A stretch of 64,000 nt of DNA, from positions 37,386,001 to 37,450,000 of the forward strand of contig NC_135823.1 in assembly GCF_964213995.1 (NCBI RefSeq), written 5' to 3'. The notes under the pieces were generated by a model. The model was not told the origin of the DNA, searched no databases, and worked only from the letters and a program-made list of their open reading frames with translations. This DNA is from Mustelus asterias (taxonomy: Eukaryota). Positions within the stretch are counted from its first letter, which is position 1. Each line of letters begins with the position of its first letter. Below, one piece after another: positions 3,501 to 63,444 of the stretch. A program made the position numbers and the translations under genes.

Positions 3501-6500
3501 AAAAGGACAGAACTGGCTATTACATTTTTCTGGATAGAAGGTGGTCGGGAAAGATAGGGAAGGTAAAAAAGGAGGCAAGGTGGCAGCAGTAATTAATATT
3601 AGTGTGAAACTTGAATATTGTTAAAAAGATGTTGGCAAAGCTTTCTATCTTACACTCATCAGGACAGATGCAAAAATATCACCACAACAATTTATACCAC
3701 AAGAGAAAAGGATGCTGATCAGCAACAAGTCTACTCTGATTGCATTACCACAGATAAAACAATAGGGAACTGAAGGCTTCCAAGAGGCACAAGATTTGAG
3801 CATATCCTTTTTGTTTGCAGGGAACAGATTACTTTGTATGAATGTATGTTACTAGTGAGCGTAAATGAGTCATGTTATGAACTCAACTGATCATCTTAAA
3901 TTAGTTAAGTATAACTATTAGCACACTCTGGATTGCTCAGCAAATGCTGCCCAATCACACATGACAGCAGACATTACATTTTGGGTTTTGAAAATGTGGG
4001 CTGGTTGAATACGGCAGGATACGGACCATGCGGAAAAGCTTTACAAGAATGGTTCCAGAGATGATAAACTTCAGTTACAACTCTACTCCAGTAAGAAGGA
4101 ATCATGCACTTACCAAATGACAATATTGCTCATTATAGTTGATCCAAGCAAAGCTTGTTCCTCCCCTTCAACATCGCAGAAAGCCAGTACCATCTCATTG
4201 GGTGGGACTAGCTGCATGCATTGCTCACTCCTAAGCAGAAGAATACAGGCAAGACTGTCACAAAACTGCAATTAGCTCATAAAACATTTCTTCTCCTCCC
4301 ATCACATCTTCCCCTTGCTCCAGACAGGCAACATTTCCCATTGAGGGCTGAAAGAGGACCTCTTCACGGACCTTTACCAATATCAGGTTAGGGAAATGAG
4401 AAACCACTACGCCGTAGAGTTCCAAATGTAATGAATCATAGGGAACCATAGTTTCCTGGAGCTTGCTTGATTGTACTACTTACGTATCCATTCTCAGACC
4501 TGGATCTGAAATGAGCATTACCTTTTGCGACATCATTAACACATTGGTCAGAAAGCAGCCCCACAAATAAGGACACAGGAAATGGGAGCAGGAATTGGCC
4601 ATATGATTCTGCTCCGCCTTTCAATACATTCATGGCTGATATTCTACCTCAACTCAGCTTTTCTGCACCATCACCATATTCTTTAATTCCCATTGTATCC
4701 AAGAATTAATCAATTTCTGTCTTTCGTATACCCAACCGACAACTGAATGTCCACAGCTCTCTGGGGTAGAAAATTCCAAAGATTCACAACCTTTTTTTGA
4801 GAAGAAATTTCTCTTTGCCTTAGTCCTAAACGGTGGCACAGTGGTTAGCACTGCTGCCTCACAACGCCAAGGACCGGGTTTGATTCCCAGCTTCGGTCAC
4901 TATCTGTGCTGAGTCTGCACGTCCTCCCTGTGACTGCGTGGGTTTCCACCGGGTGCTCCGGTTTCCTCCCACAGTCTTAAAGAAGAGTTGGTTAGGTGCA
5001 TTGGCCATGCTAAATTCTCCCCCAGTGTACCCGAACAGGCGCTGGAGTGTGGCAACTAGGGGGATTTTCACAGCAACTTTATTGCAGTGTTAATATAAGC
5101 CTACTTGTGACACTACTAAATAAAAAAAATAGCCAACCTCATTTTCTGAGAATACATTTACTAGTCGAATCTGGACTGCTTGAGCATTGGTTATAATCTG
5201 ATGTCAATCATTCTATTTAACCCAGGTCACATTTGCATTTTTTTCCCCCTTGCTCAAGGGGCCAATGAACAAATTTCAGAAATCTGTCCACAAGCCGTCG
5301 CTTGCCATTTCACCTCAGCAGCTTGCTCTTATGCCCACATGTCTGTTATCGGCCCGCTGCACTGCTCCAGTGATGCCCAACGCAAACTGGAGGAACGATG
5401 CCTCATCTTCTGATCAGGTGCCTTACATCCATCGATGTAACATGGAGTTCAACAACTTTAGACTGTGACCTTTCTCCTCTATCTCGATCCTCCTTTTTGT
5501 TTCCTTGGTACGTTCCAAGCTTTCACTGAGCATTGACCTTTGTTCTCCTAATAACACATTCTAACTTAACTTTATGGCACGATTAACCCTCCTTTAGTCC
5601 TTAATGCCCCCATTAACACTCCGACTTATTCCTGACCTATTCTGCTCAGCAGGCAGAAACCAAGAATATAAAGTTACCTAGCAACTGACTGTGTCACTCC
5701 TGTCCAGAGGCTGGTACCCCTCTGCATTGGCTGCTGATACAAGCCTATTTGCAGCCAGCGTATGTAGAAACCAGCCTATTATTGGATGAGCAGGCTCACA
5801 ATATTTTTTAAAATTCTGACCCTGAAGTCTTCAATGGTCGAGTTCATGACTCGGTCAGATTAAAATGCCTCAGGGGCTACATTCGACTCGCAGGCCAAAG
5901 GTTGGACAAGCATTATTTATGATGTGGTGGTGCTGGCGTTGGACTGGGGTGGGCACAGTAAGAAGTCTCACAACACCAGATTAAAGTCCAATGGGTTTAT
6001 TTGGCATCACGAGCTTTCAGAGCACTGCTCCTTCCTCACCTGATGAAGGATCAGCGTTCCAAAAGCTCATGATATCAAATAAACCTGTTTGACTTTAACC
6101 TGGTATTGTAAGCATTATTTAATCAATCTTCCTTATCTCTTTGTAGATTTACTGGTCTTTGTTTATTTTTGACCTGGTGATCTACAGAAAAACCTAAAGT
6201 CACCTTTGTTCCCAACAAGAATACATACTTCCAGCAAGCTGTCTGGGATCGTTATCCTCCACCAACAACTCAACTTTCTTCATCTCAGTGTTCCAACAGG
6301 TACAGTTACTTCTGCATTTTTTTGTATATCAATTTTGAACTCTTCAAAACCTTGTATTTTGCACTTATCATTTTGGTGTTCTAAACAAGCATCTGACACA
6401 CAACAGTTAACATGATCTGCCAAGCGAACCAAATCCAAAACATGGTTAACAAATACAAATCTGACCTTCCTTCTTTGGACAGGGTGCTCAGTTCAATGTG

Positions 6501-9500: not shown

Positions 9501-12500
9501 AAATCATAAGGCTCCCTGCTGGGTTTGTGCATTCATAAAATCAGCTTCTATATCTATCCTGGAGTCTTGCTTAGAACCGTTAAAATTTAGCCCTTTGAAG
9601 AACCACAAGCTCACGTTTCCTGTTTAAAAGACTATTGTTCCCCCTGCTGTGTGATAGTTATTTCCTGGGACTTTGTTCACCCAAAGTTCCCAGCATCATT
9701 CCTAGGCGTAAGTACAGAACTCATCAATATTTGGAACCATTAAATCAGTTTTTAAAATCAGGTTGTATCATTGTACTTCGGTCACTTTACAGAGGAAACA
9801 TTATCTTTTAAATCCTGGCATTGTTCAGTAATTACTAACCTGTAAAGTAGAGATTAGCTGCAAGGTTTGTCCCTTCAGTTTTTGCTCAAACTGATGGGCA
9901 GAAGTCAAGACATCATCATTCTCCTACAAAAAAAAACACAAAATGTAGTTAAAAGACTTTGAAAACAATAAAAGACTATTACACACAACCTGTTCAAGAG
10001 TGTAGGATTGGTGGACCCTAGGAGCCTGTACAAAGTCAGTGCTCTCCCCGGTCATGGTTCAAAGGTAAATGAAAACTGCCAGGCTGCTACTTAAACACAC
10101 ACACATTCTTAGATAATGTTATCTCCAAGCCAAGGCAGACGGGACAACATTGAAGGGGGCAAGCAAACAGGCACCAAAGGTGGCAGATGTAACATAATTA
10201 AGAACATAAGAACATGAGAAATAGGGGCAGGAGTAGGCCATCTAGCGCCTCGAGCCTGCCCCGCCATTCAACAAGATCATGGCTGATCTGAAGTGGATCA
10301 GTTCCACTTACCCGCCTGATCCCTATAACCCCTAATTCCCTTACCGATCAGGAATCCATCTATCCGTGATTTAAACATATTCAACGAGGTAGCCTCCACC
10401 ACTTCAGTGGGCAGAGAATTCCAGAGATTCACCACCCTCTGAGAGAAGAAGTTCCTCCTTAACTCTGTCCTAAACTGACCCCCCTTTATTTTGAGGCTGT
10501 GCCCTCTAGTTCTAGCTTCCTTTCTAAGTGGAAAGAATCTCTCCACCTCTACCCTATCCAGCCCCTTCATTATCTTATAGGTCTTTATAAGATCCCCCCC
10601 TCAGCCTTCTAAATTCCAACGAGTACAAACCCAATCTGCTCAGTCTCTCCTCATAATCAACACCCCTCATCTCTGGTATCAACCTGGTGAACCTTCTCTG
10701 CACTCCCTCCAAGGCCAATATATCCTTCCGCAAATAAGGGGACCAATACTGCACACAGTATTCCAGCTGTGGCCTCACCAATGCCCTGTACAGATGCAGC
10801 AAGACTTCTCTGCTTTTATATTCTATCCCCCTTGCGATATAGGCCAACATCCCATTTGCCTTCTTGATCACCTGTTGCACCTGCAGACTGGTAGATATTG
10901 TTTAGGTAGATTATCTATAGTTACAGGGAAGAACTGCTGCTCTCTGCAGCAGGGACAAATCAGGGGTACGGAAAATCTGAGCTCTTTTCAATTCTGCACC
11001 TCTCACTCACACATGCTTTCACTAAAGAGAGGCAAGTTGCAGCAGGCTGGCTCAGTAGAGTGGCCATGATGTGGAGATGCCGGCATTGGACTGGGGTTAA
11101 GCACAGTAAGAAGTCTCACAACACCAGATTAAAGTCCAACAGGTTGATTTGGTAGCACAAGCTTTCGGAGTGTCGCTCCTTATTCAGGTGAGTCACCTAA
11201 AGGAGGAGCGACACTCAGAAAGCTTGTGCTCCCAAATAAACTCAGTAGAGTGGCACACTGAATAAGCTAGCGTCTTGTGGGTTAAATAGTCACTGATCTC
11301 TTACTTTGCACTTAGGCCTTAGCAACATACAAGGTGAGGGACTTGGTATGTCTTAACTTGCACGCAACAACCACACGTTTAAAAAAAAATCATACCTTTT
11401 CAATTACAATGCCCTCTTCAGCAAATTTCACAGCACAATCCTCATTCAACTCCTCTGACTGACAGAACTTTGTCTCACAATTGCTGTGGAACTGCTCCTG
11501 AGGTTGTTCATCCTTATCCATATGTTTCCTTGCAGACAGACTGTCTTCTCTATTTGCTGGCGGCACCACTCCTTCAGATGTCTGGAGCCTTTGCCCACAG
11601 CTCCTATCATTATTCTGAACATCTTCACACGCATGTGACAGCGTGCCAGTTTGGAATGAGCCCTGGTTTCGATGGCTGTTTTTGGAAAGGACTGAAGAAC
11701 TAGATACAGGAGTGAAGCCAAGTGAAGGGAACACAGGGCTACCTGCACCTTGTTCACGCTGGTGGACACTCCCTGCCTGTGGAGTACCGGAAGGGGTTGA
11801 CAGCAGAACACTGGAGGATAGTTTATAGCCAGATGTATTTTTTGGTCTTTTCTGACTAGAAGGACAAATTGTATCATCTGTAGTCGGTTCCTCTGGGGTT
11901 CTGCTCGTTTCCTTGCAGTCCAAACTCTCTAGGTGAAAAACATGTGCACATTAAGCACTGTCATCCTGACTTGGAAATATATCGCCATTCCTTCACTGTC
12001 ACTGGGTCAAAATACTGGAACATCCTCCCTAATAGCACTGTGGGTGTATCTACACCTCAGGGACTGCATCAGTTCAAGAACACAGTCCACCACCCCTTCT
12101 CAAGGGCAACTTGGGATGGAAAATAAATGCTGGCCTAGTCAACGATGCCCACATCTTATAAATGAATAAAACAAAAATAGGTTGATTAAAAGGTGTAGCT
12201 TTCACTATATTCAGCTTTAAAATGATTTACTGGGGTGTATTTTTTTAATATTAATTATGGGATGTGGATGCCACCGGCTAAAAGCCTTTTAACAACCCAA
12301 TGTTCTCGAGGCTGCAACCTCGAGATCAGCATTTATTGCCCATCCACAATTATTCTAAAGAAGGTGGTGGTGAGACACCTTCTCAACCTGCCACAATCCT
12401 TATGGCAAAGGTACTCTCAACAGTGCTGTTCAGGAGAGAGTTTGAGGACTTTGGCCCAGCGATGATGAAACGGATAACAGAAATATACATTTAGATGGGT

Positions 12501-20215: not shown

Positions 20216-31577
<11,362 letters not shown>

Positions 31578-32348: not shown

Positions 32349-34480
32349 GAAACATAGAAAGAAACGTAAAAAAACTACAGCACAAAACAGGCCCTTCGGC
32401 CCCACAAGTTGTGCCGAACATATCCCTACCTTTTAGGCCTACCTATAACCCTCCATCCTATTAAGTCCCATGTACTCATCCAGGAGTCTCTTAAAAGACC
32501 CTATTGAGTTTGCCTCCACCACCACTGACGGCAGCCGATTCCACTCGCCCACCACCCTCTGTGTGGAAAAACTTCCCCCTAATGTTTCCCCTGTACCACC
32601 CCCTAGCACCTTAAACCTGTGTCCTCTCGTAGCAGACATTTCCACCCTGGGAAAAAGCCTCTGAGAGTCCACCCGATCTATGCCTCTCAACATCTTATAT
32701 ACCTCTATTAGGTCTCCTCTCATCCTACATCTCTCCAAGGAGAAAAGACCGAGCTCCCTCAGCCTATCCTCATAAGGCATGCCACTCAATCCAGGCAAAT
32801 CTTGTAAATCTCCTCTGCACCCTTTCAATCTTTTCCACATCCTTCCTGTAATGAGGCGACCAGAACTGAGCACAGTACTCCAAGTGGGGTCTGACGAGGG
32901 TCTTATATAGCTGCATCATAATCCCCGGACTCCTAAACTCAATCCCTCAATTGATAAAGGCCAGCACACCTTATGCCTTCTTAACCACCTCCTCCACCTG
33001 TGGGGCTGATTTTAGAGTCCTATGGACCCGGACCCCAAGTTCCTTCTGATCCTCTACAGTACTAAGAGTCTTTCCCTTTATATTGTACTCCTTCATCCCA
33101 TTTGACCTGCCAAAATGGACCACCACGCATTTATCTGGGTTGAAGTCCATCTGCCACTTCTCCGCCCAGTCTTGCATCTATCTATGTCCCTCTGTAACTT
33201 CTGACATCCCTCCAGACTATCCACAACCCCACCAACCTTCGTGTCGTCGGCAAACTTACCAACCCATCTCTCCACTTCCTCATCCAGGTCATTTATGAAA
33301 ATGACAAACAGCAAGGGTCCCAGAACAGATCCCTGGGGCACACCACTGGTGACCGACCTCCATTTAGAAAAAGACCCATCTATACCCACTCTCTGCCTCC
33401 TTTGGGCAAGCCAGTTCTGGATCCACAGGGCAGCAGCCCCTTGGATCCCATGCCCTCTCATTTTTTCTAGAAGCCTTGCATGGGGGACCTTCTCGAACGC
33501 CTTGCTAAAATCCATATAAACCACATCTACCGCCTTCCCTTCGTCAATGTGTTTAGTCACATTTTCAAAGAACTCCACCAGGCTCGTAAGGCACGATCTG
33601 CCTTGACAAAGCCATGCTGAGCATTCTTGAGCACACTAAACCTCTCTAAATGCTCATAAATCTTGTCCCTCAGGATCTTCTCCATCAGCTTACCAACCAC
33701 TGAGGTTAGACACACCGGTCGATAATTTCCTGGGCTATCCCTATTCCCCTTCTTGAAAATAGGAACCACATCCGCAATCCTCCGGCACCTCTCCCGTCTC
33801 CATCGACGACGCAAAGATCATCGCCAGAGGCTCTGCAATCTCTTCCCTCGCCTCCCACAGTAACCTGGGGTACATCCCATCCGGACCCGGCGACTTATCT
33901 ATCTTGATGCCATTCAAAGATTCCAGCACAACCTCTTTCTTAAAGTCCACATACTCAATCTTTTCAGTCCACTGCAAGCCCACAGTACATCCACCCATGT
34001 CCTTCTCCTCTGTGAAAACCGAGGCAAAATACTCATTAAGCACCTCTGCCATTTCTACTGGTTCCATACAGACTTTCCCGCCTTCACCTTTTATAGGCCC
34101 TATTCCTTCACGTCTCATCCTTTTACTCTTCACATATTTATAGAATGCCTTAGGGTTTTCCTTAATCCTACCTGCCAAGGCCTTCTTGTGACCCCCTTCT
34201 GGCTCTCCTAATTTCCTCCTTTAGTCTCTTCCTACAAGCCGTATACTCATCTAGATCCCTATCTTCGCCAAGCTCTCCGAACCTTTTGTATGCTTTCCTT
34301 TTCTTCTCGACTAGTTCCCGCACAGCTTTCGTGCACCATGGTTCTTTTAACCTACCAACTCCTCCCTGTCTGCTCGGAACGTTGTCCTGTAGAACTCTAG
34401 AGAGACATTCCTTGAAAAACTGCCACCTCTCTTCAGTACATTTCCCCGAGAATACCTCCTTCCAATTTACTCCTCTAATT
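32349..34480 (-). mobile_element. CR1 LINE ORF2 fragment (~2.1 kb, frameshifted)
   Basis: Chain of minus ORFs from 34168..34491 to 32439..32873, with [35 protein letters not shown]. Confidence 0.95.
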
Positions 34481-34530: not shown

Positions 34531-35037
34531 TTTAGAATCCCTACAGTGCAGAAGGAGGCCATTCGGCCCATCGAGTCCGCACCGACCAGAATCCCACCCA
34601 GACCCTATTCCCACATATGTATCCTGCTAATCCCCCTGACGTTAGGGTCAATTTAGTATGGCCAATCAACCTAACCCGTACATCTTTGGACTGTGGGAGG
34701 AAACCGGAGCACCCGGAGGAAACCCACGCAGACACGGGGAGAACGTGCAGACTCCACACAAATAATGACCCGAGGCCAGAATGGAACCCGGGTCCCTGGC
34801 ACTGTGAGGCTTAACAACACCAGGTTAAAGTCCAACAGGTTTATTTGGTAGCAAAAGCCACACAAGCTTTCGGAGCTGCAAGCCCCTTCTTCAGGTGAGA
34901 GATTTCCCACTCACCTGAAGAAGGGGCTTGCAGCTCCGAAAGCTTGTGTGGCTTTTGCTACCAAATAAACCTGTTGGACTTTAACCTGGTGTTGTTAAAC
35001 TTCTTACTGTGAGGCAGCAGTGCTAACCACCGTGCAG
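34531..35037 (-). mobile_element. HE1-like V-SINE with CR1-type tail, interrupted at 34811-35005
   Basis: V core plus tail GGTGCGGACTCGATGGGCCGAATGGCCTCCTTCTGCACTGTAGGGATTCTA on the minus strand. Confidence 0.88.
34811..35005. mobile_element. Penelope pLTR-derived perfect fold-back element
   Basis: 89-bp perfect inverted arms (34811-34899 / 34910-34998), 10-nt loop, TSD ACTGTGAGGC (34801-34810 / 35006-35015). Confidence 0.92.
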
Positions 35038-35464
35038 CCATTTGTGCAGTTCTTGTCTAAAGGTTTGGTTTATGGTCCTTGCGTTTTAAACCTAGAAACT
35101 AGAAGCAGGAACAGGCCATTCGGCCATTCAAGCCTGCTCCATCATTCAATTTGATCATGGCTGATCATCAAATTTAATATCCTGATTTTCCCCCACTTCC
35201 TCCCATATCCCTTAATCCCTTTAGCCCCAAGAGCTATATCTAATTTCTTCTTGAAATCAGACAACATTTTGGCCTCAACTACTTCCTGTGGTAGCGAATT
35301 CCACACATTCACCATCCTCTGGGTGAAGAAATTTCTCCTCACCTCAGTTCTAAAAAATTTACCCCTTATCCTCAAACTATGACCCCTAGTTCTGGGCTCC
35401 CCCACCCCTGGGAACATTCTTTCTGAATCTACCCTGTCTAACCCTGTTAGAATTTTATAAGTTT

Positions 35465-36458
35465 TGTTGTACCTGTTAATTCTCAGATACTTTCAACCAG
35501 TTTACTTACTCCAAGCTTTTACCCTGGTGCCCTTATTTGCAAGATGGACAAAGCACAAACACAAGTAAAGGTTCAACAAGCTTATTAATAATAACACTAT
35601 TAACCCTTAAATTACCCACATAAAACAAGAGGATACCCCAGCAGATTCAAGTATACTACCCGTAAAGATGGTTTGGTTGAACTGCAGGTCCGATTCTCTG
35701 AGTCCCTCTGGTCCGTCGTCACGAAGGTGACTCTCGATGGCCGCTTCTTCCTTCCTTCCTTCCTTCTCTGGTCAGTCTTCCGAATGGTCACGGCCGTCTC
35801 CTTCGTCGGGTCTTCGCTGCAGTGTGACTCAAAGTGTGTCCCTTTGTCCCCCAGCCTGCTTGCCTTTCCAGAAACTTCTCTGGCTTCCGGCCAATGAGGT
35901 CCCAGGAGGGGGTTCCAGTACCCAGTAGGTTTCTTGATGTCTGCCTGACAGGACACCAGGGTCCGCCCCCCAGCTGTCCATCTCCATGTTGTTGAACTTG
36001 TTAGTCATGATGTGGAGATGCCGGTGTTGGACTGGGGTAAACACAGTAAGAAGTTTAACAACACCAGGTTAAAGTCCAACAGGTTTATTTGGTAGCAAAA
36101 GCCACCCAAATAAACCTGTTGGACTTTAACCTGGTGTTGTTAGACTTCTTACTGTGTTGAACTTGTTATCAGATAAGGTATCTACAGGAACTCTTGGTGA
36201 CAGAAAGTCTGGCTCGATCTGCGCTTCTAACAATAGGCCGATGCATTTCAATGAGGTGCCATGATCTCCTGCTAAGTCTCAAGTAGAGTGTAACGACCTT
36301 TGATGGGTGGTTGATGGGTCAGGCCCAGACACGTTTGTGTATTTGTACAATTGGCCTGCCTGAGGTTTGACTGTGTTTGATTTCAATGTGCCCAATTCTT
36401 CAATTTAGGATATCCAATTGTATCAGCCTTAAAACTAGGCCCTGTTTATATCACCACA
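35465..36458. mobile_element. Probable solo LTR (Gypsy/ERV-type)
   Basis: 994-bp insert starting TGT and ending ACA, flanked by 4-bp TSD GTTT (35461-35464 / 36459-36462), no recognisable coding domain. Confidence 0.7.
36004..36154. mobile_element. Penelope pLTR-derived fold-back miniature inside the LTR
   Basis: TGATGTGGAGATGCCGG head, inverted arms, 14-bp TSD TGTTGAACTTGTTA (35990-36003 / 36155-36168). Confidence 0.87.
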
Positions 36459-37912
36459 GTTTCTATGAGATCCCCCCTCACTCTTCTAAACTCCAGTGAA
36501 TATAATTCTAACCAACTTGGTCTCTCTTCATATGACAGACCTGCCATCCCAGGAATCAGCCTGGTAAACCCTCGCTGTATTCCCTCTGTAGCAAGGACAT
36601 CTTTCCTCAGTTAAGGACACCAGAACTGCACACAATACTCCAGGTGTGGCCTCACAAATGCCCTATACAATTGCAGCAAAACATCCCTATCTCAATACTC
36701 AAATCCTCTCACTATGAAGGCAGACATACCATTTGCCGCCTTTACTGCCTGCTGTACCTGTGTGCTTACTTTCAGCGACTGATGCACAAGGACACTAAGG
36801 TCTCACTGAGTATCCACCTCTCTCAATTTACATCCTTCAAGTAATAATCTGTCTTCCTATTATTGCTACCAAAGTGGATAACCTCAAGTTTATCCACATT
36901 ATACTGCATCTGCCATGCAGATGTCCACACACTCAGCCTGTCCAGATCACGCTGAAGCATCTCTGCATCCTCCTCACAGCTCTCCCTCCCACCCAATTTT
37001 GTAACATCTGCAAATTTGGGGATAATATATTCATTTCCCTCTTCCAAATCATTAATATATAATGTGAACAGTTGGGATGCTAGCACCGATCTCTGTGGAA
37101 CCCCACTGGATAACGATACAAAATCACTTTAATCTGGTGTCACATCCACAAATGTATGATCCTGCTAGTATATAAAACTAATTGACCAAATGATCAGCTA
37201 ACAGCCAAGTGCGTGTTTCCTCTCAGTGGATCTACTAAGGGTCTTGCACGATTGCACAATCCTAATTCTGCCCCCATGTGTTTGTTACTATCTGTATAAA
37301 CTGTCTGAACTCTTCAATTTGTTCCCAGCCTTGAATCAGCTTCTCCTGGGCATTCATCATTCTACATTTGACTTTGTTTTCTTGTTGCAGAGTCCAATTA
37401 ATTGGGTAACTGAAAGTGAACGACTGGACAAACAGAAGGCCTAGCTTCTGCCTGGGCACTCCCAAGTGATGGAATGGCTCTAATGTAGGGAAACTCAGGT
37501 GTTCTGAATGATATGTGTTCACCTTTGGTCTGGTCTGCTGCTGCTCTACACTGAGTGATTCACTGTGTGTCCGGGTAGTCTTCACTTCACCAATTTTAAA
37601 TCATAAACTGGCTTTGCACAAAGCCAGAAAATTAGAGACTGGGAACATACCATATTTATTCTAGAAATTATTTCTGTGGTGAAATGTTAAATCACTGAGT
37701 GTCCTACACATCTTAACCAGGTTTGACCCACTTATAAAATGGAAAAGAGCTTAGATTGTGACCAAGTATAAAGATTATATGTTTTCTCTCTTAAGAATTC
37801 ACTCACACTAGACTTAATGTTTGTGTTAAATGTCCTTTAGACTGACTGCCACCTGCTATTTGCACAGTTCATCACTGTTTAATCTGTTTAATTACCAATA
37901 TTACTTGGGACA

Positions 37913-38085
37913 AAGACAGAAAAATGCTGGAAACGCTTAGCAGGTCTGACAGAATCTGTGGAGAGAGTAGAGCCAACATTTTGAGTCTAGATGACCCTTC
38001 GTCAGCTGCTGTCAGACCTGCTGAGATTTTCCAGCATTTTTCTGAATTTGTTTCAGATTCCAGCATCTGCAGTATTTTGCATTTA
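37913..38085. mobile_element. Second Penelope-like pLTR family, fold-back remnant
   Basis: AAAATGCTGGAAA...AGCAGGTCTGACAG / CTGTCAGACCTGCT...TTTCCAGCATTTT inverted arms; minus-strand CTGACGAAGGGTCATCTAGACTCAAAA. Confidence 0.72.
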
Positions 38086-39653
38086 TCCTATGGGATCCTT
38101 GCTGATGCAGTGCAGCATACAGCTTGCTCAGGGGCAGAATTCATGGTTGGGGGGGGCTTCTGGTAGAAAAATGTGCAGCATTGTTTCAGCGCTTTGGCTG
38201 TTTCTTGGATGTTGATGAGAACTGGGGGGTGGGACAGGGGTGTTGATTGTGAGGGGCCAACCCTTCCATCAAACCAGTGGTGAGGCTTAGTTACCAAAAT
38301 GTATCCAGTTTATTTGAAAGATCTGTTTCATTAAAGACCAATTCTTCAACCCAGGCACGTTGTCTGATGAAATGGTGTGACTGAAAGAGAATTGGCTGCA
38401 CAGGGCACCAAGGGCAGAATTTTTTTTAAAAACTGACAGAGAAAAAAATTAGTTTTTGAAGCCACTTCCCCGAGCATGCCATGTGAGAAATTTAACCCAG
38501 GTGTGGATATGTGCATTTATGGTCGTGTGTAGTTATGTAGACTTTGAATGTCCTTAGTTAGAAGGAATCCAGATTTTGAGGCTTTCAGGCAAGCAAGTAG
38601 GGTCCAAATGGGTGTTGCTTTAGGGCACAGGAGCTCTCTGGTCATTTGGTTGCTTTTGGTTTCCCTGTGGCTAATGGGTTTTGGATAATTGGGCAGGTAC
38701 TTTCCTACCTCCTAAGGATACCTGTTTGACTCTCTTGAACTGTTCAGTCTGATGTGGAAGGCATCAGACAATCCCAAAACTGAGGATAGAGATCATCTCC
38801 TAACAAAAGTTGTACAATACTTTGGACAACGGGACTACATTGTACATTGATCTTGAAATTGTCCATCAAATCTCTTTTTCCTCTCTTCTCCCTCCCCCCT
38901 CCTCTTTTGGAATGGTTCTGCTTCCTGCCAGTACTTCTCATTGATAGTAAATGCGTTATCTGGGGTTAGGCACGTGGATAATAGGAGGTGAGAGCTTGCA
39001 ATGTAACACTTGGTGACTCATTGTATTGGTGCAGCAGTACCAGAAACACCCCAGATTTAATTGCCATCAGTATTGCTTGATGCTGTATATATTGTGCAGT
39101 CTCAGTGTCCACCAGCCCCAGCCATGATGCACATTCTCTGAGCACACTCAAATTTACTGCTGTTTCCAACTGTGTATGCAGTGTACCTTGCCCTTCAATG
39201 GACAACTGGATTCTGTTCATTATTTTCCTGTCAGTTCTGTTCAGCACTGCTTCCAAACAGGTTCCCTGTGCAATGCACTGTGCCTGCAATGCTCCAAAGG
39301 AAACTGGAGGACACTAGAACACTATGTGGATCTGCTGTGTCAGTCACATCTGTCAAAGAATTAAGAATGAGAAAGTTTTATATGCAAATAATCATGATTA
39401 TCCTGTTTTTGTGCATTCATAAAAATGTTCCTTGAAATAAAACTGATAAATTGCAGCCAAGAAGGAGTTTATAGATCACAGAGGGTAGGTGAGGGAAATA
39501 TGTATACAGCAGTATTTAATTTGCAGCAGACACTCAAGGTACACATGTCTGCAAGCTTTAGACTCACAACTTTGCAACACAGAAGGAGGCTATTCAGCCT
39601 TTTGTGCCTGTATCAGTTCTCTGAAAGAGAGATCCACTGTTCCCCATTGGATG

Positions 39654-39815
39654 AAGGCAAAATGCTGCTGATGTTGTAATCTGAAACAAAAACAGAAAGT
39701 GCTGGAAAATCTCAGCAGATTCAAGGGTCAACCTGACTCGAAACGTTGGCTCTATTCTTTCTCCACAGATGCTATCAGACCTGCTGAGATTTTCTAGCAT
39801 TTTCTCTTTTTGTTC
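39654..39815. mobile_element. Second Penelope-like pLTR family, fold-back remnant
   Basis: TGCTGGAAAATCTCAGCAG / CTGCTGAGATTTTCTAGCA arms; AAGGGTCAACCTGACTCGAAACGTTGGCT. Confidence 0.72.
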
Positions 39816-40581
39816 CACTTTATCCCAAAACCCTGCCATCTCACTGTTTTCTCTTCTAAATATTTATATGCTCGCTTCCCATTTAAACTATTAAAAAGTA
39901 TTTGGGTGTGACAGAGTTGATGCAGCAGAGGAGCAAGGTTTGAATAGCTTTTTCCCACTTCTGACTGTTCTTCTGCCCAACAGCTGCTCTGCCTACCCCT
40001 CAGGTGACTGCTGCCGACTGCCAGTGAGATCTTCAACTTGTGCCAGATGGTTGGCGGTTTTGCACTGAGGCCTCCTCAGTTCTGTTACAGATGAAGCAGT
40101 CGCTGGCTGCCCCCACCCCCCGCACCCAAATCTTACGTGATTTATATTGCACTTGTGGGCATCCCTGGCTAGGCCAGCATTTGTTGCCCATCCCTAGTTA
40201 CTGTAATAAAATATCCCAAGTTGCTTCATGGGGTAATAGGACATAATTTGACAAGAAGCCACGTAAGATATTTGGTCAAATTACTTACAAACTTTGTCAG
40301 ATTAATAAATTTTAAGGTACATGGTAAGCTTGAGGGAGGGATTTTAGGAGCTTGGACTTGAGCCCAGACAATTGAAGGCATGGCGGATGAAGAAATTGGG
40401 GAGCTGCAAGAAGCCATTGTTGGAGGAATGTAAAGTTCAGAGGATTGTAGGATTAGATAATGAGACTTATTGCAACTCTGGAACACCATACAATAAATTA
40501 TTTTACTTTTGAGTGCAATAAGATGAAAGTGTAGTTATTTACTGATGTTGACCATTGCACAGCTGTTTTCTTTAAATAGTG

Positions 40582-40639
40582 TAAGAGTTTTAACAACACC
40601 AGGTTAAAGTCCAACAGGTTTATTTGGGAGCAAATACCA
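40582..40639. mobile_element. 58-bp single-arm Penelope pLTR fragment
   Basis: TAACAACACCAGGTTAAAGTCCAACAGGTTTATTTGG with 14-bp TSD TTCTTTAAATAGTG (40568-40581 / 40640-40653). Confidence 0.85.
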
Positions 40640-43939: not shown

Positions 43940-44200
43940 CTCCCGCCCCTTTTCTCTCGGTTGCCCAGGAAGTAGCGGGCAGGGGGGTTGAGCAGCGCTG
44001 TGATTGGCTGGCCGGGCTGTCAATCAGGTCGGTTGCTAGGCAGCCGCATTTAAACCGTTCTGTCCCGGCATGCAGCCCAGGCTGGGTTCTATTTAAATGA
44101 AAGCAGCCAATAGGAAGCGGCGCTGGGCTGCCTAACCGCCGGCGCTGCTGATTTGAATCAGAGCCCGCGAGCAGTGGGCCGGGACAGACGCTGCAGCTTC
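43940..44200 (+). promoter_or_regulatory. PLK1 G2/M-type promoter (CCAAT boxes, MYB site, CDE/CHR)
   Basis: ATTGG 44003-44007, CCAAT 44107-44111, TAACCG 44133-44138, GC-rich CDE-like GCGCTG 44142-44147, 4-nt spacer, CHR TTTGAA 44152-44157. Lies in a CpG island. Confidence 0.8.
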
Positions 44201-44212
44201 TACCCCCCTGTA

Positions 44213-44345
44213 CCCAGCACAGAGCCGAGACAAGCCACAGCCCAGCCTATATCCAGCACAGAGCCCAGCCTAGCCTGTATCCAGCACAGAGCCGAGACAA
44301 GCCACAGCCCAGCCTGTATCCAGCAGCACAGAGCCAAACAGCACC
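44213..44345 (+). repeat. ~39-bp imperfect tandem repeat in the presumed PLK1 5' UTR
   Basis: CCAGCACAGAGCCGAGACAAGCCACAGCCCAGCCTRTAT, about 3.5 copies. Confidence 0.8.
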
Positions 44346-44445
44346 CCAGGCCTGTGCACCAACCCCGGGACTCCCCCCGGAAAGGACTCGCTCGGGGACT
44401 TTTGCTTGTCTCCCCTCCCCACCCTCTGCATTAAACCCGTTCAAA

Positions 44446-44805
44446 ATGACCACAGCGTCCGGTAAACCGTCAGCCAAGCTGGGAACGGTGGTGGCCCCGC
44501 CGGTGGCCAAGGAGATCCCCGAAATCCTGGTGAACCCCAAGACCATGAAGAGGTACCTGCGGGGCCGCTTCCTGGGCAAAGGGGGGTTCGCCAAGTGCTA
44601 CGAGATCTCCGACACGGACACCAACGAGGTGTACGCCGGCAAGATCGTGTCCAAGACGCTGCTGATGAAGCCGCACCAGCGGGAGAAGATGTCCATGGAG
44701 ATCTCCATCCACAAGAGCCTGAATCACAGCAACGTGGTGGGTTTCCACGGCTTCTTCGAGGACGACGACTTTGTCTACGTGGTGCTGGAGCTGTGCAGGC
44801 GGAGG
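44446..44805 (+). CDS. PLK1: PLK1 exon 1 (360 nt)
   Basis: MTTASGKP...LELCRRR|GTGAGT. Confidence 0.94.
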
Positions 44806-47800
44806 GTGAGTGTACCCCGGGAGGGGAGAGAGGAGCAACATTGGGGCTGCCTGTCCTGTCCCCGGGGGGGGGGGGTGGATGGAGGGAGGGGGTTGTATTT
44901 AATGGGCGGATTGACCGTTTCAAAAGGGTGCGGGGGACACAAAGAGGCCGCTGAATGGGGCGCCTCGCCGCGTCCCCACCGTGGAACCAACTGTAACCAT
45001 TTGGGAGAGGCAGCGGCACCAATCACAGGGGCCGCTGCCGGGGCCATTGGCAACAATGTATCCGGTGGCTTTGTCAATGTATCGACTCGGGGCGGTAGCG
45101 GGCTGGCGGCTTCTCCCCGCTCCCCTGACCCTTCACTGGGGGGGATCTCTCGCCTCCCCCGGGTGGATCCGGGCTCGGCGCCGCCTCGTTGGCCGCTCGC
45201 TTTAAAGGGAGTTGATATTTAAAAATCCGGCAGCTCAGCGGGTTGGCCGCCCAGACTCTCCGTCTCATAAAAAAAGGCGGAGCCACCCGGCCAGGAACTG
45301 AAACCTACGGCAGCCTCCGCCAGATGGACTATTCCCAGCTCACCACCCACCCCCCCCCCCCCCCAAATACTAATTTACCAAATGGCTCCATGTAAAAGCC
45401 AGTAAGAAGTCTCCCAACTTCTTACTGTGTTTACCCCAGTCCAACGCCGGCATCCCCACTCCATGTGAAGCCACAGTTTGTACTCCGGTAATGAACATTC
45501 ACCGGTTCCCCCGCTTGAGCTGGGACTAAGCCCGCATGATCGGGTCACTCTCCTTTCCCCAGTCTTTTTAACTGAACTCTCTCTCTCTCTCCTTTTTATG
45601 CTATAATAATAAAAAAGTAAAATGTCTCCTTCAGTCTCTGTTAGAATTGCACAAGAGGCGAAAGGCCGTCACTGAACCGGAGGCCCGGTATTACCTGAAG
45701 CAAATCATCTCGGGCGGCCAATATCTGCACGACAACCACGTTATCCATCGAGATCTCAAGCTCGGCAACCTCTTCCTCAACGATGACATGGAAGTGAAGA
45801 TAGGTAAAACTTTGCACCGTGTCCTGTCCCGGGTGTCAGTACTGCATGGCCAGTTCAACTGAGCCACTTATGGAACTAAGTATTGCTTTTCTCCTGCAAA
45901 CCGTGCACACATTTATTAAAAAATATTAAACTCGCTCGGAATATCTTTCTATCTATATATATATATATATATCAGACACAGGAAGTTGAGCAGAGTGCAG
46001 GGCTAATTTTCCTCTATTAGTGCGAGTTAATATTTGTGTAAAGTTTGAAGAGTGGGCTTGACTCGACCCTCGCTGGGTTTGGGGGCATTTTACACTCGAA
46101 TTTCCTCGGAGCTACATGACTGATTCTTCAATCGGATCCACCGTAAGGGACATGGGTGGTGGTAGGAAGTGCCATTTAAACGGATAGGGACAATTAAAGG
46201 GGACTGCCCAACTGGTGTGGTAGAGAACGTGAGTGCATCTCGATTTGCCTTGGCGGCGAGGGGGAACAGCTCACTGACTCTCGGTCCTGCCGGGTCACTC
46301 TGTTGGGTTTATAAACGGAAACAGTTGAGCAAGTCATCCACTGTGATGGGTGCTTGTAAATACACTGGAGAAAAGTAGACTGCATTGGGATACTTTGAAC
46401 TTGTATAATGTTTGAAATGATACTTGAAAGATGTACATCTGATGTGCTAAGTGCAATTTTACAAGATGTAAATTTTAAATTAAAGCACTATCTCTGACGT
46501 TCCGCTGATTTCAGCCCCTATGAGGACTCTTGCCCCCGCCCCCCCCCCCCCCCCAGCTGTTACCAGGTATGGTCAAGAGTGACTGAGTGCAGTCAGCTGG
46601 ACTTTGTGATCTAATGACAATACTGACATGCCTGTCTTACAGCACCATGTCAAAAATGACAATTTGGGGTGCCTTCCAGCATAGTGGCTAGTCTGGCCTT
46701 CATGTGTATGTGTCATTGGCCTTTTGTTGGGGGGAAAAAACTTGCATTTAATAGTGTTTTTCACAACCGCCAGACATCTGAAAACGCTTTCCAGCCAATT
46801 GAATACTTTTTTCAAGTTTAGTCCCCTGTAATGTGTGAAATGTGGTAGCCAAAATACAGCCAGGTCCCAAAAATATAGACGATAGGAGGAGGCCATTTGG
46901 CTCTTCGAGCCTGCTCCACCATTCATCACGATCATGGCTGATCGTCCAACTCAAGAGCCTAATCCTGTTTTCTCCCCATAACCTTTGAACCCATTCACCC
47001 CAAGTGCTATATCTAGCCACTTCTTGAATGCATTCAATGCACTCAAACATCCATGTGATGGTGATCAGATAGTCTGTTTGTGATGTTGATTGTGGATTAA
47101 ATATTGGCCCAGGACACCAGGGATAACTTCCCCTGTTCTGAAATGTTGAGCTGTCCAATCTCCATTTGGTAGTGGTCCCTCGCTCCTTTCCAAATCCCCC
47201 CTCAGATGAAGGATTCCCACGGGGAAACCAACTCAATAGAAACAAAAGGAGAGGCAAGTATCAGCTGGGTCATTGAACCTGTCCAACCTTAGCATGGTGC
47301 CACCATAGCCCTCTCAACCACCAAGTTAGCTCAAGGATACCCACCTGACTGCTTTCTAGCATTCTTGTCCTCAGTTATTAGGACTCTTCCACAAGAATGA
47401 GGAAAGGCAATGTAAAATAAAGATTACAATTCAAAGTGGTCTGGGGGATCTCTGTGCATAAATTTTTGAAGGTGGCGGGGCAGTGAATAAGAGATACAGG
47501 ATCCTGGGCGTTATAAATGGGGAGGAAATTGAGGAATGTTTATAAAACACTAGTTCAGCCTCAACTGTGGTATTTTGTCCAAATCTAGACACAATGTTTT
47601 AGGAAGGGAATAAAGGCATTTGGAGAGGACGCAGAAATGGTTTATGACAATGGTTCCAGAGATGGAAGACTTCAGTCATGTGGTTAAATTGGAAAAACTG
47701 GGGCTGTTCACCTTGGAGGAGAGAAGGTTAAAGGGGGGCCTGGACAGTGTAGACAATGGTGGTGGGGTTGCAAAAATGTTCCCCAATGATGGATGGGTGA

Positions 47801-50800: not shown

Positions 50801-53800
50801 CAAACGGTTGAAACACTAAATCGTTCCGACTAAGCTTACTTGATATATTGGTACAAAATTATAGCCAATACACATGATCCCAATTGTTCCACTGCTAGTG
50901 ACCACTCTTAATACTTCAGTGTTGCACAAGAGGTGTCCTTTACAGACACTAGTTTGAAAGGAAGAGACCTCTAATGAGACTGTTGAGAACCGTCTAAAAC
51001 TTTATTCTTTAGCTCTCCTAATGACACCATTGAAGGAATGTTAACTCCTGCTGCTGACCAGAAAAGTGTCAAGAACAATTCCACCAACTGTTAACATATA
51101 TAAATTAAACTTCAGTATGTAATTCTTTGGTCACATTCCTTGTAAGTGCAGCTCTGTATTTTGCTGAAATATAACTAAAGGAGATGATAATTCAGCAAAT
51201 TGCAAAACAAATGCAAATTCAGTGACAGAAAACAGAGCAGCACTTAGGTTCTTAGTTAAGTGAAAGATGTTTCTAACAGACTTGCATGTGCAGGAAGTGC
51301 TTCCCCTAATGTTGTGCAAATAACAGTGAATGAAGACTAGAGTAGCAGATGATTAGGGGAATTGTCCCTCATCTCAAGCTGCAGAACCATAAACTGACCA
51401 CATCAATGACAACATTGTGCTCTTAAAGAATGGGGTTTGAAATCTCTGCCAACCACTGGATCTTTTGAGTTACAGCTGAAGGGGAGGAAGTGCAAGTTTT
51501 TGTCTGAGGAAATCTGTTAGTAATTCACTTCCACTAATAGTTTATTGATTTGATCTTTGTAATGTTTATCCAATAGACGTTCCAGCTGGTGACAAACCAG
51601 GCAAGTCGGAAGATGGAGTAGCAAGGTAAGTATTCTCTTACTGCCACTAGAAATGGTGTTTCATGTAGATCAAAGGAAGCGTTTTGATTATATGAGGAGC
51701 TTTGCTGTTGCAATTTATTTTCAATTCTCTTTGAAATGGTCCCATGTATGGGAACTCTCCATGTGCCTGTCTATATCCATTGACTATGCCTGTTGAATTC
51801 TGTCTTTGGGGAGTCATGGAGCTCAATCCATATGGGCTTCCAGTCAAGTTTAAGTAGTTGGTCTATCTTTCTACCTTCCTTTTTCCCTCCTATAATCCAG
51901 GGATTGAATTTGGGAGGCTGTATGGGTCAACACTACATAATGCACATTAGTATAATTGAGATGTTTGAGTTCTTTGAACTTTTCTATAGACCTTTTTCTA
52001 TATTTTATCATTGTGTTGGAAATGCCAGTTGGTCCACTCCCACCCTGACCATTGTTCCTAACCACTCGTGTCATGGGTAGACTATTCAAATATTGGAAAG
52101 GAAGATGTCACATGGTGCTTCTTGGGACTATCAGTTGTAAAACTAATTCAATTTCCTAAACTGCTAATACATTGCTTTAATCTACCAAAATACACCTGAC
52201 TGAGCAAGCAAATGCTGCTATTTTGTACAGTGACTTCTCTTTGCGTGCTTTTGTGATTTGGATTCAATAGCACTCAGTGCATAACTGTGAGATCAAGCTC
52301 TCTGCTGGACAAGTTCATGAGTACGTGAGTCTTTTGTGACTAAACTAATTTCTCTTTTCTACAGAGAAGTAGGGGAATGCAATGATTTCTATCTCTCGGA
52401 CCTATTGCAGCAGCTAAACAGTGTAGTATCAGCAAGGCCAGCCGACAAAGCAGTCATCAGACAAGGTACAGAAACAGGCTTCTCATAGCTCCTGAAGTGT
52501 TTTTTTTATGGCATTTAGGCTGCCTTGACCTGGGCTGCTGGGGGAAAACTAGTGCCCCATGAATTGATGTCCCATTTAATGCCAGCAAAATGGAGTTGCA
52601 TCAACCTTACTTGTATACAATTAATGAAATTCCTGATAGCTAGCTTCGCAACTTCAACTACTCATTCAACCCATCACACATTTTCCCTTATTGATTTTCT
52701 TTTTGTGGGTGAGTAATTGCGCTGTGAAACATTCACTGAATTGGCACCTTGCGGAAAAGGTATAAAATAAACTGCTTAATAAATTTGGGGTAATTTTGCT
52801 TTCCCACCAGCTAGGTTTATCTGTTGTGCTTTCCTTTCTGTTTTTTACCCCCAACTCCATTGTCTTAAGCTTTTTTGTATTTGAACATGTATGAATGCAG
52901 TGTTTACTATTATTTCTTTCTCCTGACAGAGGAGGCTGAAGACCCGGCCTGTATACCGATTTTCTGGGTCAGCAAGTGGGTTGATTATTCTGATAAATAT
53001 GGTTTGGGTAAGTACCATTCTTGACTTGTCTACACTGGATTATTGAACACAAGTACTCTCATACCTTGGGCCCTCATCGTCTTTCTTGGTTACCAGCAGA
53101 GTGAACAAAGAACAATACAGCACAGGAACAGGCCCTTTGGCCCTCCAAGCCTGCGCTGCTCATGTGCCCACTAGACCATTCTTTTATACCCCTCCATTCC
53201 CAGTCTGTTCATGTGGTTATCTAGATAAATCTTAAACGATCCCAGCGTGTCTGCCTCAATCACCTTGCTTGGCGGTGCATTCCAGGCCCCCACCATCCTC
53301 TGTAAAATATGTCCCCCTGACATCTGTGTTGAACCTTGCCCCCCTCACCTTGAGCCCGTGACCCCTTGTGTTCGTCACCTCCGACCTGGGAGAAAGCTTC
53401 CCACTGTTCACTCTATCTATGCCCTTCATAATTTTATACACCTCTATTAGGTCGCCCCTCATCCTCCGTCTTTCTAGGGAGAACAACCCCAGTTTACCTA
53501 ATCTCTCCTCCTAGCTAAGACCCTCCATACCAGGCAACATCCTGGTAAACCTTCTCTGTTCTCTCTCCAAAGCCTCCATGTCCTTCTGATGAATCTGGAT
53601 TAGCTTTTCTGGGGTTACCTTGGCCCAACCTGACTAATCGGTTGAATAATTTATTTGGCACTGTTGTGGGAAATTGGGGAGGGGACTAACTTGTCTGAAT
53701 GCAACCTTAATGATACTGGGGCCTCATGGCCTTAAGAAATGCTGATTTTCTGCATATTAGGGGGAAAAGTTCCTCCAATGAGAGAAATGGTGTATTCTGC

Positions 53801-63224: not shown

Positions 63225-63444
63225 CTGATGTGGAGATGCCGGCGTTGGACTGGGGTAAACACAGTAAGAAGTTTAACAACACCAGGTTAAAGTCCAACAG
63301 GTTTATTTGGTAGCAAAAGCCACACAAGCTTTCGAAGCTCTAAGCCCCTTCTTCCCGAAGAAGGGGCTTAGAGCTTCGAAAGCTTGTGTGGCTTTTGCTA
63401 CCAAATAAACCTGTTGGACTTTAACCTGGTGTTGTTAAACTTCT
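63225..63444. mobile_element. Penelope pLTR-derived perfect fold-back element in an ERN2 intron
   Basis: ~90-bp perfect arms (63265-63354 / 63357-63446) with a 2-nt loop; 12-bp TSD TAATCGGAACTT (63213-63224 / 63445-63456). Confidence 0.92.

What the first reader, a model, noticed from the sequence alone, without database searches (positions are those of the whole stretch)
34811..35005. Family of ORF-less fold-back miniature retroelements with long TSDs, derived from a Penelope pseudo-LTR
Seen: at least seven short insertions built from the same ~200-bp module, at 5920-6109, 11065-11240, 34811-35005, 36004-36154, 40582-40639, 45400-45458 and 63225-63444. Each has its own 10-15 bp target-site duplication, and all but 40582 fold back on themselves at a different turning point. 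The module is the terminus of the GIY-YIG-encoding element at 29631-30830. Established: Penelope-like elements often carry inverted pLTRs on truncated copies. Inference: these are very short products of Penelope-type insertion followed by template switch or snap-back. They look like MITEs but are retro-derived. At about one per 9 kb here, they could be a large source of hairpins across this genome.
Basis: partly seen in the sequence, partly recalled or inferred. Interest (0 to 1): 0.72.

Follow-up and report, generated by a model that had tools for sequence, protein, structure and literature searches.

The report
Shark Penelope hairpins mark ribozyme cut
These short mirror-image insertions are real but are stub-length copies of a very abundant Penelope-type jumping gene laid down in an already described shape; across the genome their turning points pile up exactly at the predicted cut of the element's self-cleaving RNA, which likely records both broken DNA ends copying the same short RNA piece.

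Summary
Confirmed: seven short insertions, six with exact 10-14 bp target duplications, six folding back. They are not a separate miniature family or MITEs, but the short end of a truncation series of a Penelope-like element with intact RT + GIY-YIG frames elsewhere. At least 26,870 short hairpins lie in the genome. Head-to-head arms, a one-sided tail and a minimal hammerhead are known PLE features. Beyond that: 109 of 110 bounded insertions pair one tailed with one tail-less arm (the focal copy is the exception); either arm can be longer (26 vs 27; 172 vs 118); both outer ends show priming-like microhomology. Turning points pile up at the predicted hammerhead cut (9 of 13; 26 of 50 in a second subfamily; hand tallies) and just upstream of the ribozyme. 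Likely mechanism: both nicked strands prime cDNAs at two fixed RNA sites, run off a shared RNA end and join. No RNA evidence. The scan noted such hairpins before on other DNA; one note supplied the cut-site lead.

The parts
34801..34810 (+). left copy of the 10-bp target-site duplication of the focal insertion
   Evidence: single in six paralogous SINE-like copies
34811..34899 (-). focal copy, inverted arm: element positions -47 to -135 (0 = A of the ORF start codon); no tail, which is exceptional
34900..35005 (+). focal copy, sense arm: positions -145 to -40 (tail-less end); the first 6 bases of the duplication also match the element's next bases
   Evidence: sequence compared
34910..34951 (+). 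minimal type I hammerhead motif (helix I, core starting at 34915, stem II, GAAA, palindromic helix III); predicted cut between 34945 and 34946
   Evidence: sequence; family covariation; consensus of PMC4209133; Rfam found nothing
34964..34969 (+). AATAAA, poly(A)-signal-like hexamer of the pLTR (function inferred)
   Evidence: sequence
35006..35015 (+). right copy of the target-site duplication
34533..35040 (-). host SINE-like repeat split by the focal insertion (SINE label from recall, not from a call)
5920..6109 (.). older fold-back copy: tailed arm 0 to about -118, tail-less arm about -124 to -50; 12-bp duplication
11065..11240 (.). fold-back copy: tailed arm +2 to -136; the second arm stops at the AATAAA (-76), short of the usual end; 14-bp duplication
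29626..30837 (-). longer truncated head-to-head insertion: tailed arm +5 to -1108 with the GIY-YIG end of the ORF (broken frame), tail-less arm from -207; arms differ at subfamily-type sites; no duplication found
36004..36154 (.). fold-back copy: tailed arm +4 to about -97/-101 (at or near the predicted cut), tail-less arm -84 to -36; 14-bp duplication
40582..40639 (-). single tail-less arm from -39 to within one base of the predicted hammerhead cut of its subfamily; 14-bp duplication
   Evidence: cut position read by eye
45400..45458 (.). tiny fold-back copy: 19-nt tail-less arm plus tailed arm -47 to -5; degenerate duplication
63225..63444 (.). young fold-back copy: tailed arm 0 to -128, tail-less arm -128 to -41, identical arms; 12-bp duplication

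Best explanation
These are short, 5'-truncated insertions of an abundant endonuclease-bearing Penelope-like retrotransposon, each likely made when both ends of a staggered cut prime reverse transcription at two fixed RNA sites about 36 nt apart and the two cDNAs, after likely running off a shared RNA end, are joined head to head. Shown: the element and its intact frames, 11-14 bp duplications, two outer-end classes (-4..+2 and -42..-33), the one-tail rule, either arm being longer, coupled inner ends, and two pile-ups of turning points. Inferred: the stagger gives the duplication; each 3' end pairs with 1-4 nt of RNA to prime; the shared stop is either the 5' end left by hammerhead self-cleavage or a point just upstream of the ribozyme (transcript start behind a TATA-like box, or a polymerase stall); the cDNA ends are joined by template jumping or microhomology-mediated end joining. 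The stubs are probably dead ends, each a separate event.
For: Autonomous frames of 912-913 codons between stops; 893-aa protein with RVT_1 (E 5e-10) and GIY-YIG (E 3e-5); full copy L032 has the same outer anatomy as the stubs. One tailed + one tail-less arm in 109 of 110 duplication-bounded pairs; duplication 11-14 bp in 88 of 110. Single arms with duplications come in both end types: in the random set 12 of 32 tailed and 4 of 16 tail-less, control 19 of 400. Microhomology of 2 nt or more at 25 of 54 tailed and 23 of 49 tail-less ends, against 16% by chance, p about 1e-7 each (6 and 11 further ends of the 60 insertions had unmatched bases). Longer arm tailed 26, tail-less 27 among 81 clean junctions; 4 vs 10 among the 14 youngest; 172 vs 118 for one recurrent junction genome-wide. 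Inner ends coupled: within 15 nt in 16 of 27 random-set cases, permuted mean 5.7. Cut site: farthest end within 1 nt in 7 of 20 cases near it, p 0.002; exactly at it in 9 of 13 unambiguous cases in a 10-position span (hand tally of the first 50 of 2,079 matches); after a written prediction, 26 of the first 50 of 1,455 matches in a subfamily whose cut lies 2 nt closer (hand tally). Upstream pile-up: 35 of 63 short junctions reach 2-17 nt before the core; genome-wide spacer counts 15,820 (0-90), 7,894 (91-120), 3,156 (121-150), 1,522 (151-180). PMC11167929: a purified PLE nicks and extends both strands and starts at two sites that bound the tail.
Against: No RNA 5' ends and no biochemistry for this element. 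The focal copy has no tail, and 5920 and 11065 end short of the usual tail-less site. Arms nearly always share a subfamily haplotype (63 of 68, 41 of 48, 25 of 30), which a fold-back also predicts; the few multi-site discordances could be gene conversion, and a triangle test flagged 9 of 81, most by a margin of one difference. 20 of the 26 cut-site hits are one junction favoured by a self-complementary 7-mer, so microhomology inflates that count. The cut coincides with the end of helix I, so a structural stall would track it too. The upstream cluster runs up to 11 nt beyond the start site predicted from the TATA-like box, which was present in 28 of 42 distinct upstream sequences. PMC11167929 reports no primer-template homology in vitro, no need for the ribozyme in vitro, and no RNA-seq reads ending at its cut. 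The cut-site test was prompted by an earlier AI note, and two tallies were by eye on the first 50 matches of one contig. The 172:118 split is not even (p 0.002).
Confidence: 0.68

Rival explanations
1. One cDNA primed at the tail site folds back and copies itself; endonuclease cleavage trims the copy at about -36; later loop inversion or centre breakage of the palindrome gives the cases with a longer tail-less arm.
For: Arms usually share a haplotype; 50 of 98 insertions have loops of 15 nt or less; PMC8557442 attributes the tail to EN-mediated resolution (passage); PMC3846280 reads junction palindromes as self-priming (Discussion); 172 vs 118 leans to the tailed arm.
Against: The tail-less arm is longer in 10 of the 14 youngest asymmetric cases, by up to 366 nt. 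Tail-less single arms with duplications show that site primes by itself. Both ends have the same microhomology profile. Zero-loop palindromes cannot form intramolecularly. Old arms have diverged by up to 15-20%, so arm-to-arm recombination is not frequent.
Confidence: 0.2
2. Two cDNAs are primed, but the pile-ups are reverse-transcriptase stalls on the folded hammerhead plus microhomology hot spots; the ribozyme does not cut the template.
For: Helix I ends at the cut; natural palindromes attract junctions; minimal hammerheads cleave poorly in vitro (PMC4209133); cleavage is dispensable in vitro (PMC11167929).
Against: The peak is one base wide (neighbours 0 or 1 case), with varied inserted bases and no self-complementary end there. 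It moves with the cut between subfamilies. The base before the cut is non-G in 114 of 116 distinct cores and helix I covaries.
Confidence: 0.3
3. A non-autonomous miniature family is amplified from a few master hairpins.
For: One junction recurs at least 290 times genome-wide.
Against: 81 of 81 sampled junctions differ. The recurrent junction occurs in both arm orientations and on several subfamily backgrounds. Lengths are continuous into the ORF.
Confidence: 0.05
4. A DNA-transposon MITE.
For: Long inverted repeats, no coding capacity.
Against: Ends are asymmetric and scattered, duplications are 8-25 bp with mode 12, and the arms are the terminus of an RT + GIY-YIG element.
Confidence: 0.01

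Closest known systems
Insertion units of EN+ Penelope-like elements with an inverted pLTR and one-sided tail (Pen2a_Av and relatives, PMC3846280; Fig. 2 legend of PMC8557442)
   Same: Head-to-head inverted pLTR, 30-40 nt tail on one end reaching the ORF start, 8-10 bp or longer duplications, junction palindromes, 5' truncation, foreign DNA between pLTRs
   Different: Here tens of thousands of gene-less stubs allow counting; the tail is on exactly one end in 109 of 110 cases and either arm may be longer. Those papers explain the shape by antisense self-priming or EN resolution, not by two primed cDNAs.
PAc (Poseidon of Anolis) in vitro system, PMC11167929
   Same: Two RT start sites that bound the tail, both strands nicked and extended, predicted dimer, hammerhead upstream of the start sites
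   Different: Start sites lie 111-118 nt inside the ORF there and at the start codon here; that paper found no primer homology and no reads ending at the ribozyme cut, and its main text does not discuss inverted insertions.
Minimal hammerheads of metazoan PLE pLTRs, PMC4209133
   Same: Extra base after the core, G-C first pair of stem II, palindromic helix III, short helix I; paired motifs 100-700 bp apart on opposite strands were noted in Schistosoma
   Different: That paper states there is no in vivo evidence of cleavage; sharks are not mentioned in the parts read.
L1 twin priming (recalled, not read)
   Same: Both nicked strands prime, giving an inversion between duplications
   Different: In L1 the second primer anneals at a variable internal site and arms do not overlap; here both start at fixed 3' sites and copy the same sequence, giving a hairpin.
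MITEs of DNA transposons (PMC8969392 passage)
   Same: Short, gene-less, inverted repeats, high copy number
   Different: No fixed termini, no constant short duplication, retroelement origin

Membership tests
EN+ Penelope-like element | Single ORF with RT and C-terminal GIY-YIG endonuclease | tested here: met
   893 aa; RVT_1 E 5e-10; GIY-YIG E 3e-5 above cut-off; DKG, GxAMG, YIDD motifs
EN+ Penelope-like element | pLTR from partial tandem copies; inverted 5'-truncated copy | tested here: met
   L031, L032 and others
EN+ Penelope-like element | 30-40 nt tail at one end | tested here: met
   two end classes about 36 nt apart; absent from the focal copy
EN+ Penelope-like element | Hammerhead motif in the pLTR | tested here: met
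   116 distinct cores fit the minimal consensus; helix I pair 1 is C-G in 66 and U-A in 28; Rfam has no hit
EN+ Penelope-like element | Hammerhead self-cleavage activity | not testable with these tools
   only the indirect genomic pile-up
Neptune (or Nematis) clade | [quoted passage not shown] | tested here: met
   residues 754-762 and 792-808; criterion from PMC8557442
Neptune (or Nematis) clade | RT phylogeny with named Neptune references | not tested
   no named references were fetched; homologues are unnamed proteins of sharks (83-94%), turtles (41-45%), ticks and lancelets
MITE (DNA transposon) | Fixed symmetric termini and constant short duplication | tested here: not met
Non-autonomous PLE family (self-propagating miniature) | Many copies share one internal structure | tested here: not met
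   81 of 81 junctions distinct; the one recurrent junction occurs in both orientations
Described Repbase/Dfam family | Match to a curated consensus | not testable with these tools
   neither library is available

The most novel reading that the evidence does not exclude
The shark genome holds a fossil record, tens of thousands of events deep, of the Penelope integration cycle: both target strands prime at two fixed RNA sites, and the minimal hammerhead cuts the template RNA in the germline, so that reverse transcriptase runs off exactly at the cut. That would be in vivo evidence for the activity of PLE hammerheads and one mechanism for tail, inverted pLTR and duplication together.
Probability: 0.45. 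Interest if true: 0.76.

Novelty: new member of a known kind. Interest (0 to 1): 0.56.

Why it matters
The shape is known, but how PLEs make it is open: PMC8557442 calls hammerhead function in these elements unclear and asks for a mechanism of the tandem and inverted structures, and PMC11167929 leaves the later steps unvalidated. Counting these stubs turns both questions into sharp tests, with a predicted RNA end at one base and a predicted two-strand product. The stubs also add roughly 50,000 short hairpins to the genome (extrapolated from 1.4 Mb) that annotation tools could take for MITEs.

Tried and rejected
DNA similarity search of the own genome returned nothing, as very common words are skipped; exact patterns were used instead. 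Rfam found no family in the window or in the pLTR at E 10; ARAGORN found no tRNA. Folding the ribozyme region alone did not give the hammerhead fold (z 0.24), as expected for a motif thought to need a dimer; the tail region gave z -1.3. Sequencing runs: no RNA holder listed, only assembled contigs, so no reads were laid. Mixed-subfamily arms as proof of two RNAs: too few and open to gene conversion. Part of the alignment had arms mis-oriented and was used only for three pairs. Rows dropped before the junction counts: of 110 bounded insertions, 12 chosen around long ORFs, 1 too long, 1 unmapped, 13 with more than 30 nt of unassigned middle, 1 degraded, and the tail-less focal copy, leaving 81. 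The targeted set (L191-L245) is biased to short young copies, so densities use only the fixed-coordinate set. No paper on this shark family or on twin priming of PLEs came up (open-licence library only). The reviews of Evgen'ev and Arkhipova 2005 and Arkhipova 2006 were not read, and the supplements of PMC11167929 (Figs S1, S2) were not opened; they may bear on the novelty of the two-cDNA reading. Look-ups of earlier scan notes by sequence and by a narrower word set were empty.

Full report
Observation. Six have exact duplications of 10-14 bp and one a degenerate one; six fold back. The focal copy is an 89-bp stem with a 10-nt loop inside a SINE-like repeat whose six paralogues in the window show the empty site. 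Coordinates below count from the A of the ORF start codon of locus L032 (0).

What the module is. A protein search of the own genome (3.68 Gb) gave 94,244 candidates, of which 150 were scored, several in frames of 912-913 codons. L032 encodes 893 residues with an RT domain, a CX4CxxC linker and a GIY-YIG domain. Its closest homologues are unnamed shark proteins at 83-94% identity, so the host is probably a shark (inferred). L032 is bounded by a 12-bp duplication, begins with an inverted tail-less arm and ends with a tail that stops at the start codon. The stubs have the same outer anatomy. The module is the last 145 nt or so of the pLTR: a TATA-like box just upstream (35-42 nt before the ribozyme core in 28 of 42 distinct sequences), a minimal hammerhead, AATAAA and the tail. 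The hammerhead matches the consensus of PMC4209133 (text parts 1-2 of 4 read): among 116 distinct cores the extra base is A in 115, the base before the cut is non-G in 114, and the first pair of helix I is C-G in 66 and U-A in 28. Rfam does not detect it.

Abundance. A 33-base core occurs 91,619 times exactly, the reversed control 0. Two facing 16-mers within 150 bases occur 26,870 times. In 140 fixed-coordinate samples of 10 kb the element covers 2.7% of bases and coverage falls steadily from the 3' end into the ORF. These samples hold 39 duplication-bounded pairs of 98-3,201 bp, 20 of them 300 bp or shorter, which extrapolates to about 50,000 short hairpins. The stubs are the short end of a truncation series.

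Outer ends. Of 110 bounded head-to-head insertions (39 random, 55 targeted, 12 around long frames, 4 in the window), 109 have one arm ending near the start codon and one ending near -37; the exception is the focal copy, which has no tail. Eleven further pairs had no duplication. Duplications are 11-14 bp in 88 of 110 (control 47 of 600). Single arms with duplications exist for both end types (random set 12 of 32 and 4 of 16; control 19 of 400), so each site can prime alone. Both ends show excess microhomology to the target (2 nt or more in 25 of 54 and 23 of 49; chance 16%). This fits the two start sites found in vitro in PMC11167929 (main text read, supplements not opened), although that paper saw no homology.

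Inner junctions. After the exclusions listed under Tried and rejected, 81 junctions were mapped; all differ. The tailed arm is longer in 26 and the tail-less arm in 27 (difference over 5 nt), and the two inner ends are coupled (within 15 nt in 16 of 27 random-set cases against 5.7 permuted). A cDNA that folds back can give a tail only from its first arm, so that arm should always be the longer; it is not, even among the youngest copies (4 vs 10 of 14). Of 53 asymmetric junctions 23 have 2 or more shared bases and 22 have inserted bases. Arms nearly always come from one subfamily, as expected if both cDNAs copy one RNA or sister RNAs; the few exceptions are not decisive.

Where the arms stop. 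An earlier AI note (e1-9162017) suggested the hammerhead cut, another (e1-9048232) the RNA start; I tested both. In 63 short junctions the farthest point lies 2-17 nt before the ribozyme core in 35, and within 1 nt of the cut in 7 of the 20 near it (p 0.002). Genome-wide spacer counts rise to 7,894 per 30 nt at 91-120 from a mean of about 5,200 below, then fall to 3,156 and 1,522. In the first 50 of 2,079 matches for the youngest subfamily, 13 could be placed without doubt in a 10-position span round the cut and 9 end exactly on it (hand tally); four more of uncertain subfamily were set aside. I then wrote down that a second subfamily should stop 2 nt closer: 26 of the first 50 of 1,455 matches end exactly there, 20 of them as one junction made through a self-complementary 7-mer (hand tally). 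That junction occurs with the tailed arm at the cut 172 times and with the tail-less arm at the cut 118 times, on several subfamily backgrounds. In the window, 40582 ends within a base of the cut, and the focal copy turns in the upstream cluster.

Mechanism. Most likely the enzyme makes a cut staggered by about 12 bp, each 3' end primes on the element RNA at one of two sites, both cDNAs stop at a shared point (often an RNA 5' end made by the ribozyme or, less certainly, the transcript start), and the two ends are joined. The anatomy and counts are shown; priming, run-off and joining are inferred. The main rivals are fold-back with later rearrangement (0.2) and stalls without cleavage (0.3, compatible with two cDNAs).

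Comparison and novelty. Inverted pLTRs, a one-sided tail and junction palindromes are described (PMC3846280, passages and Discussion read; PMC8557442 and PMC8969392, passages). The copies pass the tests for an EN+ PLE with a Neptune/Nematis-type linker and fail those for a MITE or a self-propagating miniature. I found no paper on this shark family or on two-cDNA priming of PLEs in ten searches of the open library, but could not see Repbase, Dfam or two key reviews. The scan has 122 similar notes in at least 14 genomes; I had written the two-cDNA reading before looking. Verdict: real, known kind, with useful indirect evidence on two open mechanistic points; interest 0.56.

Noticed in passing
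window 37906-38094 and 39643-39817: Two older fold-back repeats of a different family that also carry a hammerhead-like core with a different stem II; probably stubs of a second Penelope-like family. No duplication was sought.
   Followed up: partly
window 14456-14536: An 81-bp imperfect palindrome (79% arm identity) unrelated to the module.
   Followed up: no
window 44152-45219 (+): Open frame of 356 codons holding the start of a protein kinase domain (Pkinase E 2e-15); probably a first coding exon, with the 45400 stub about 180 bp downstream.
   Followed up: partly
window 15787-17628 (-): Open frame of 614 codons with no Pfam match at E 0.05; possibly a large host exon.
   Followed up: partly
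window 2540-3220, 22070-23850, 32370-33640, 53100-53590: Several related LINE-like fragments; 22597-23301 (-) matches RVT_1 at E 3e-23.
   Followed up: partly
L051:2927-3514, L123:9514-9910, L225:2062-2714, L242:2036-2687: Head-to-head insertions with 160-430 bp of unrelated DNA between the arms, inside one duplication: captured sequence or later insertions; similar captures are described in PMC3846280.
   Followed up: no
L192:1468-1721, L216:2009-2279, L219:357-518: Junctions with short reiterated copies of neighbouring sequence, as from repeated slippage during joining.
   Followed up: no
L199:1467-1641, L069:6727-6958: Arms that agree in the outer part but carry different subfamily haplotypes further in, suggesting a template switch or gene conversion within one arm.
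   Followed up: partly
L212 and L214: The same insertion with shared flanks in inverted orientation about 60 kb apart on contig C1: a segmental duplicate.
   Followed up: partly
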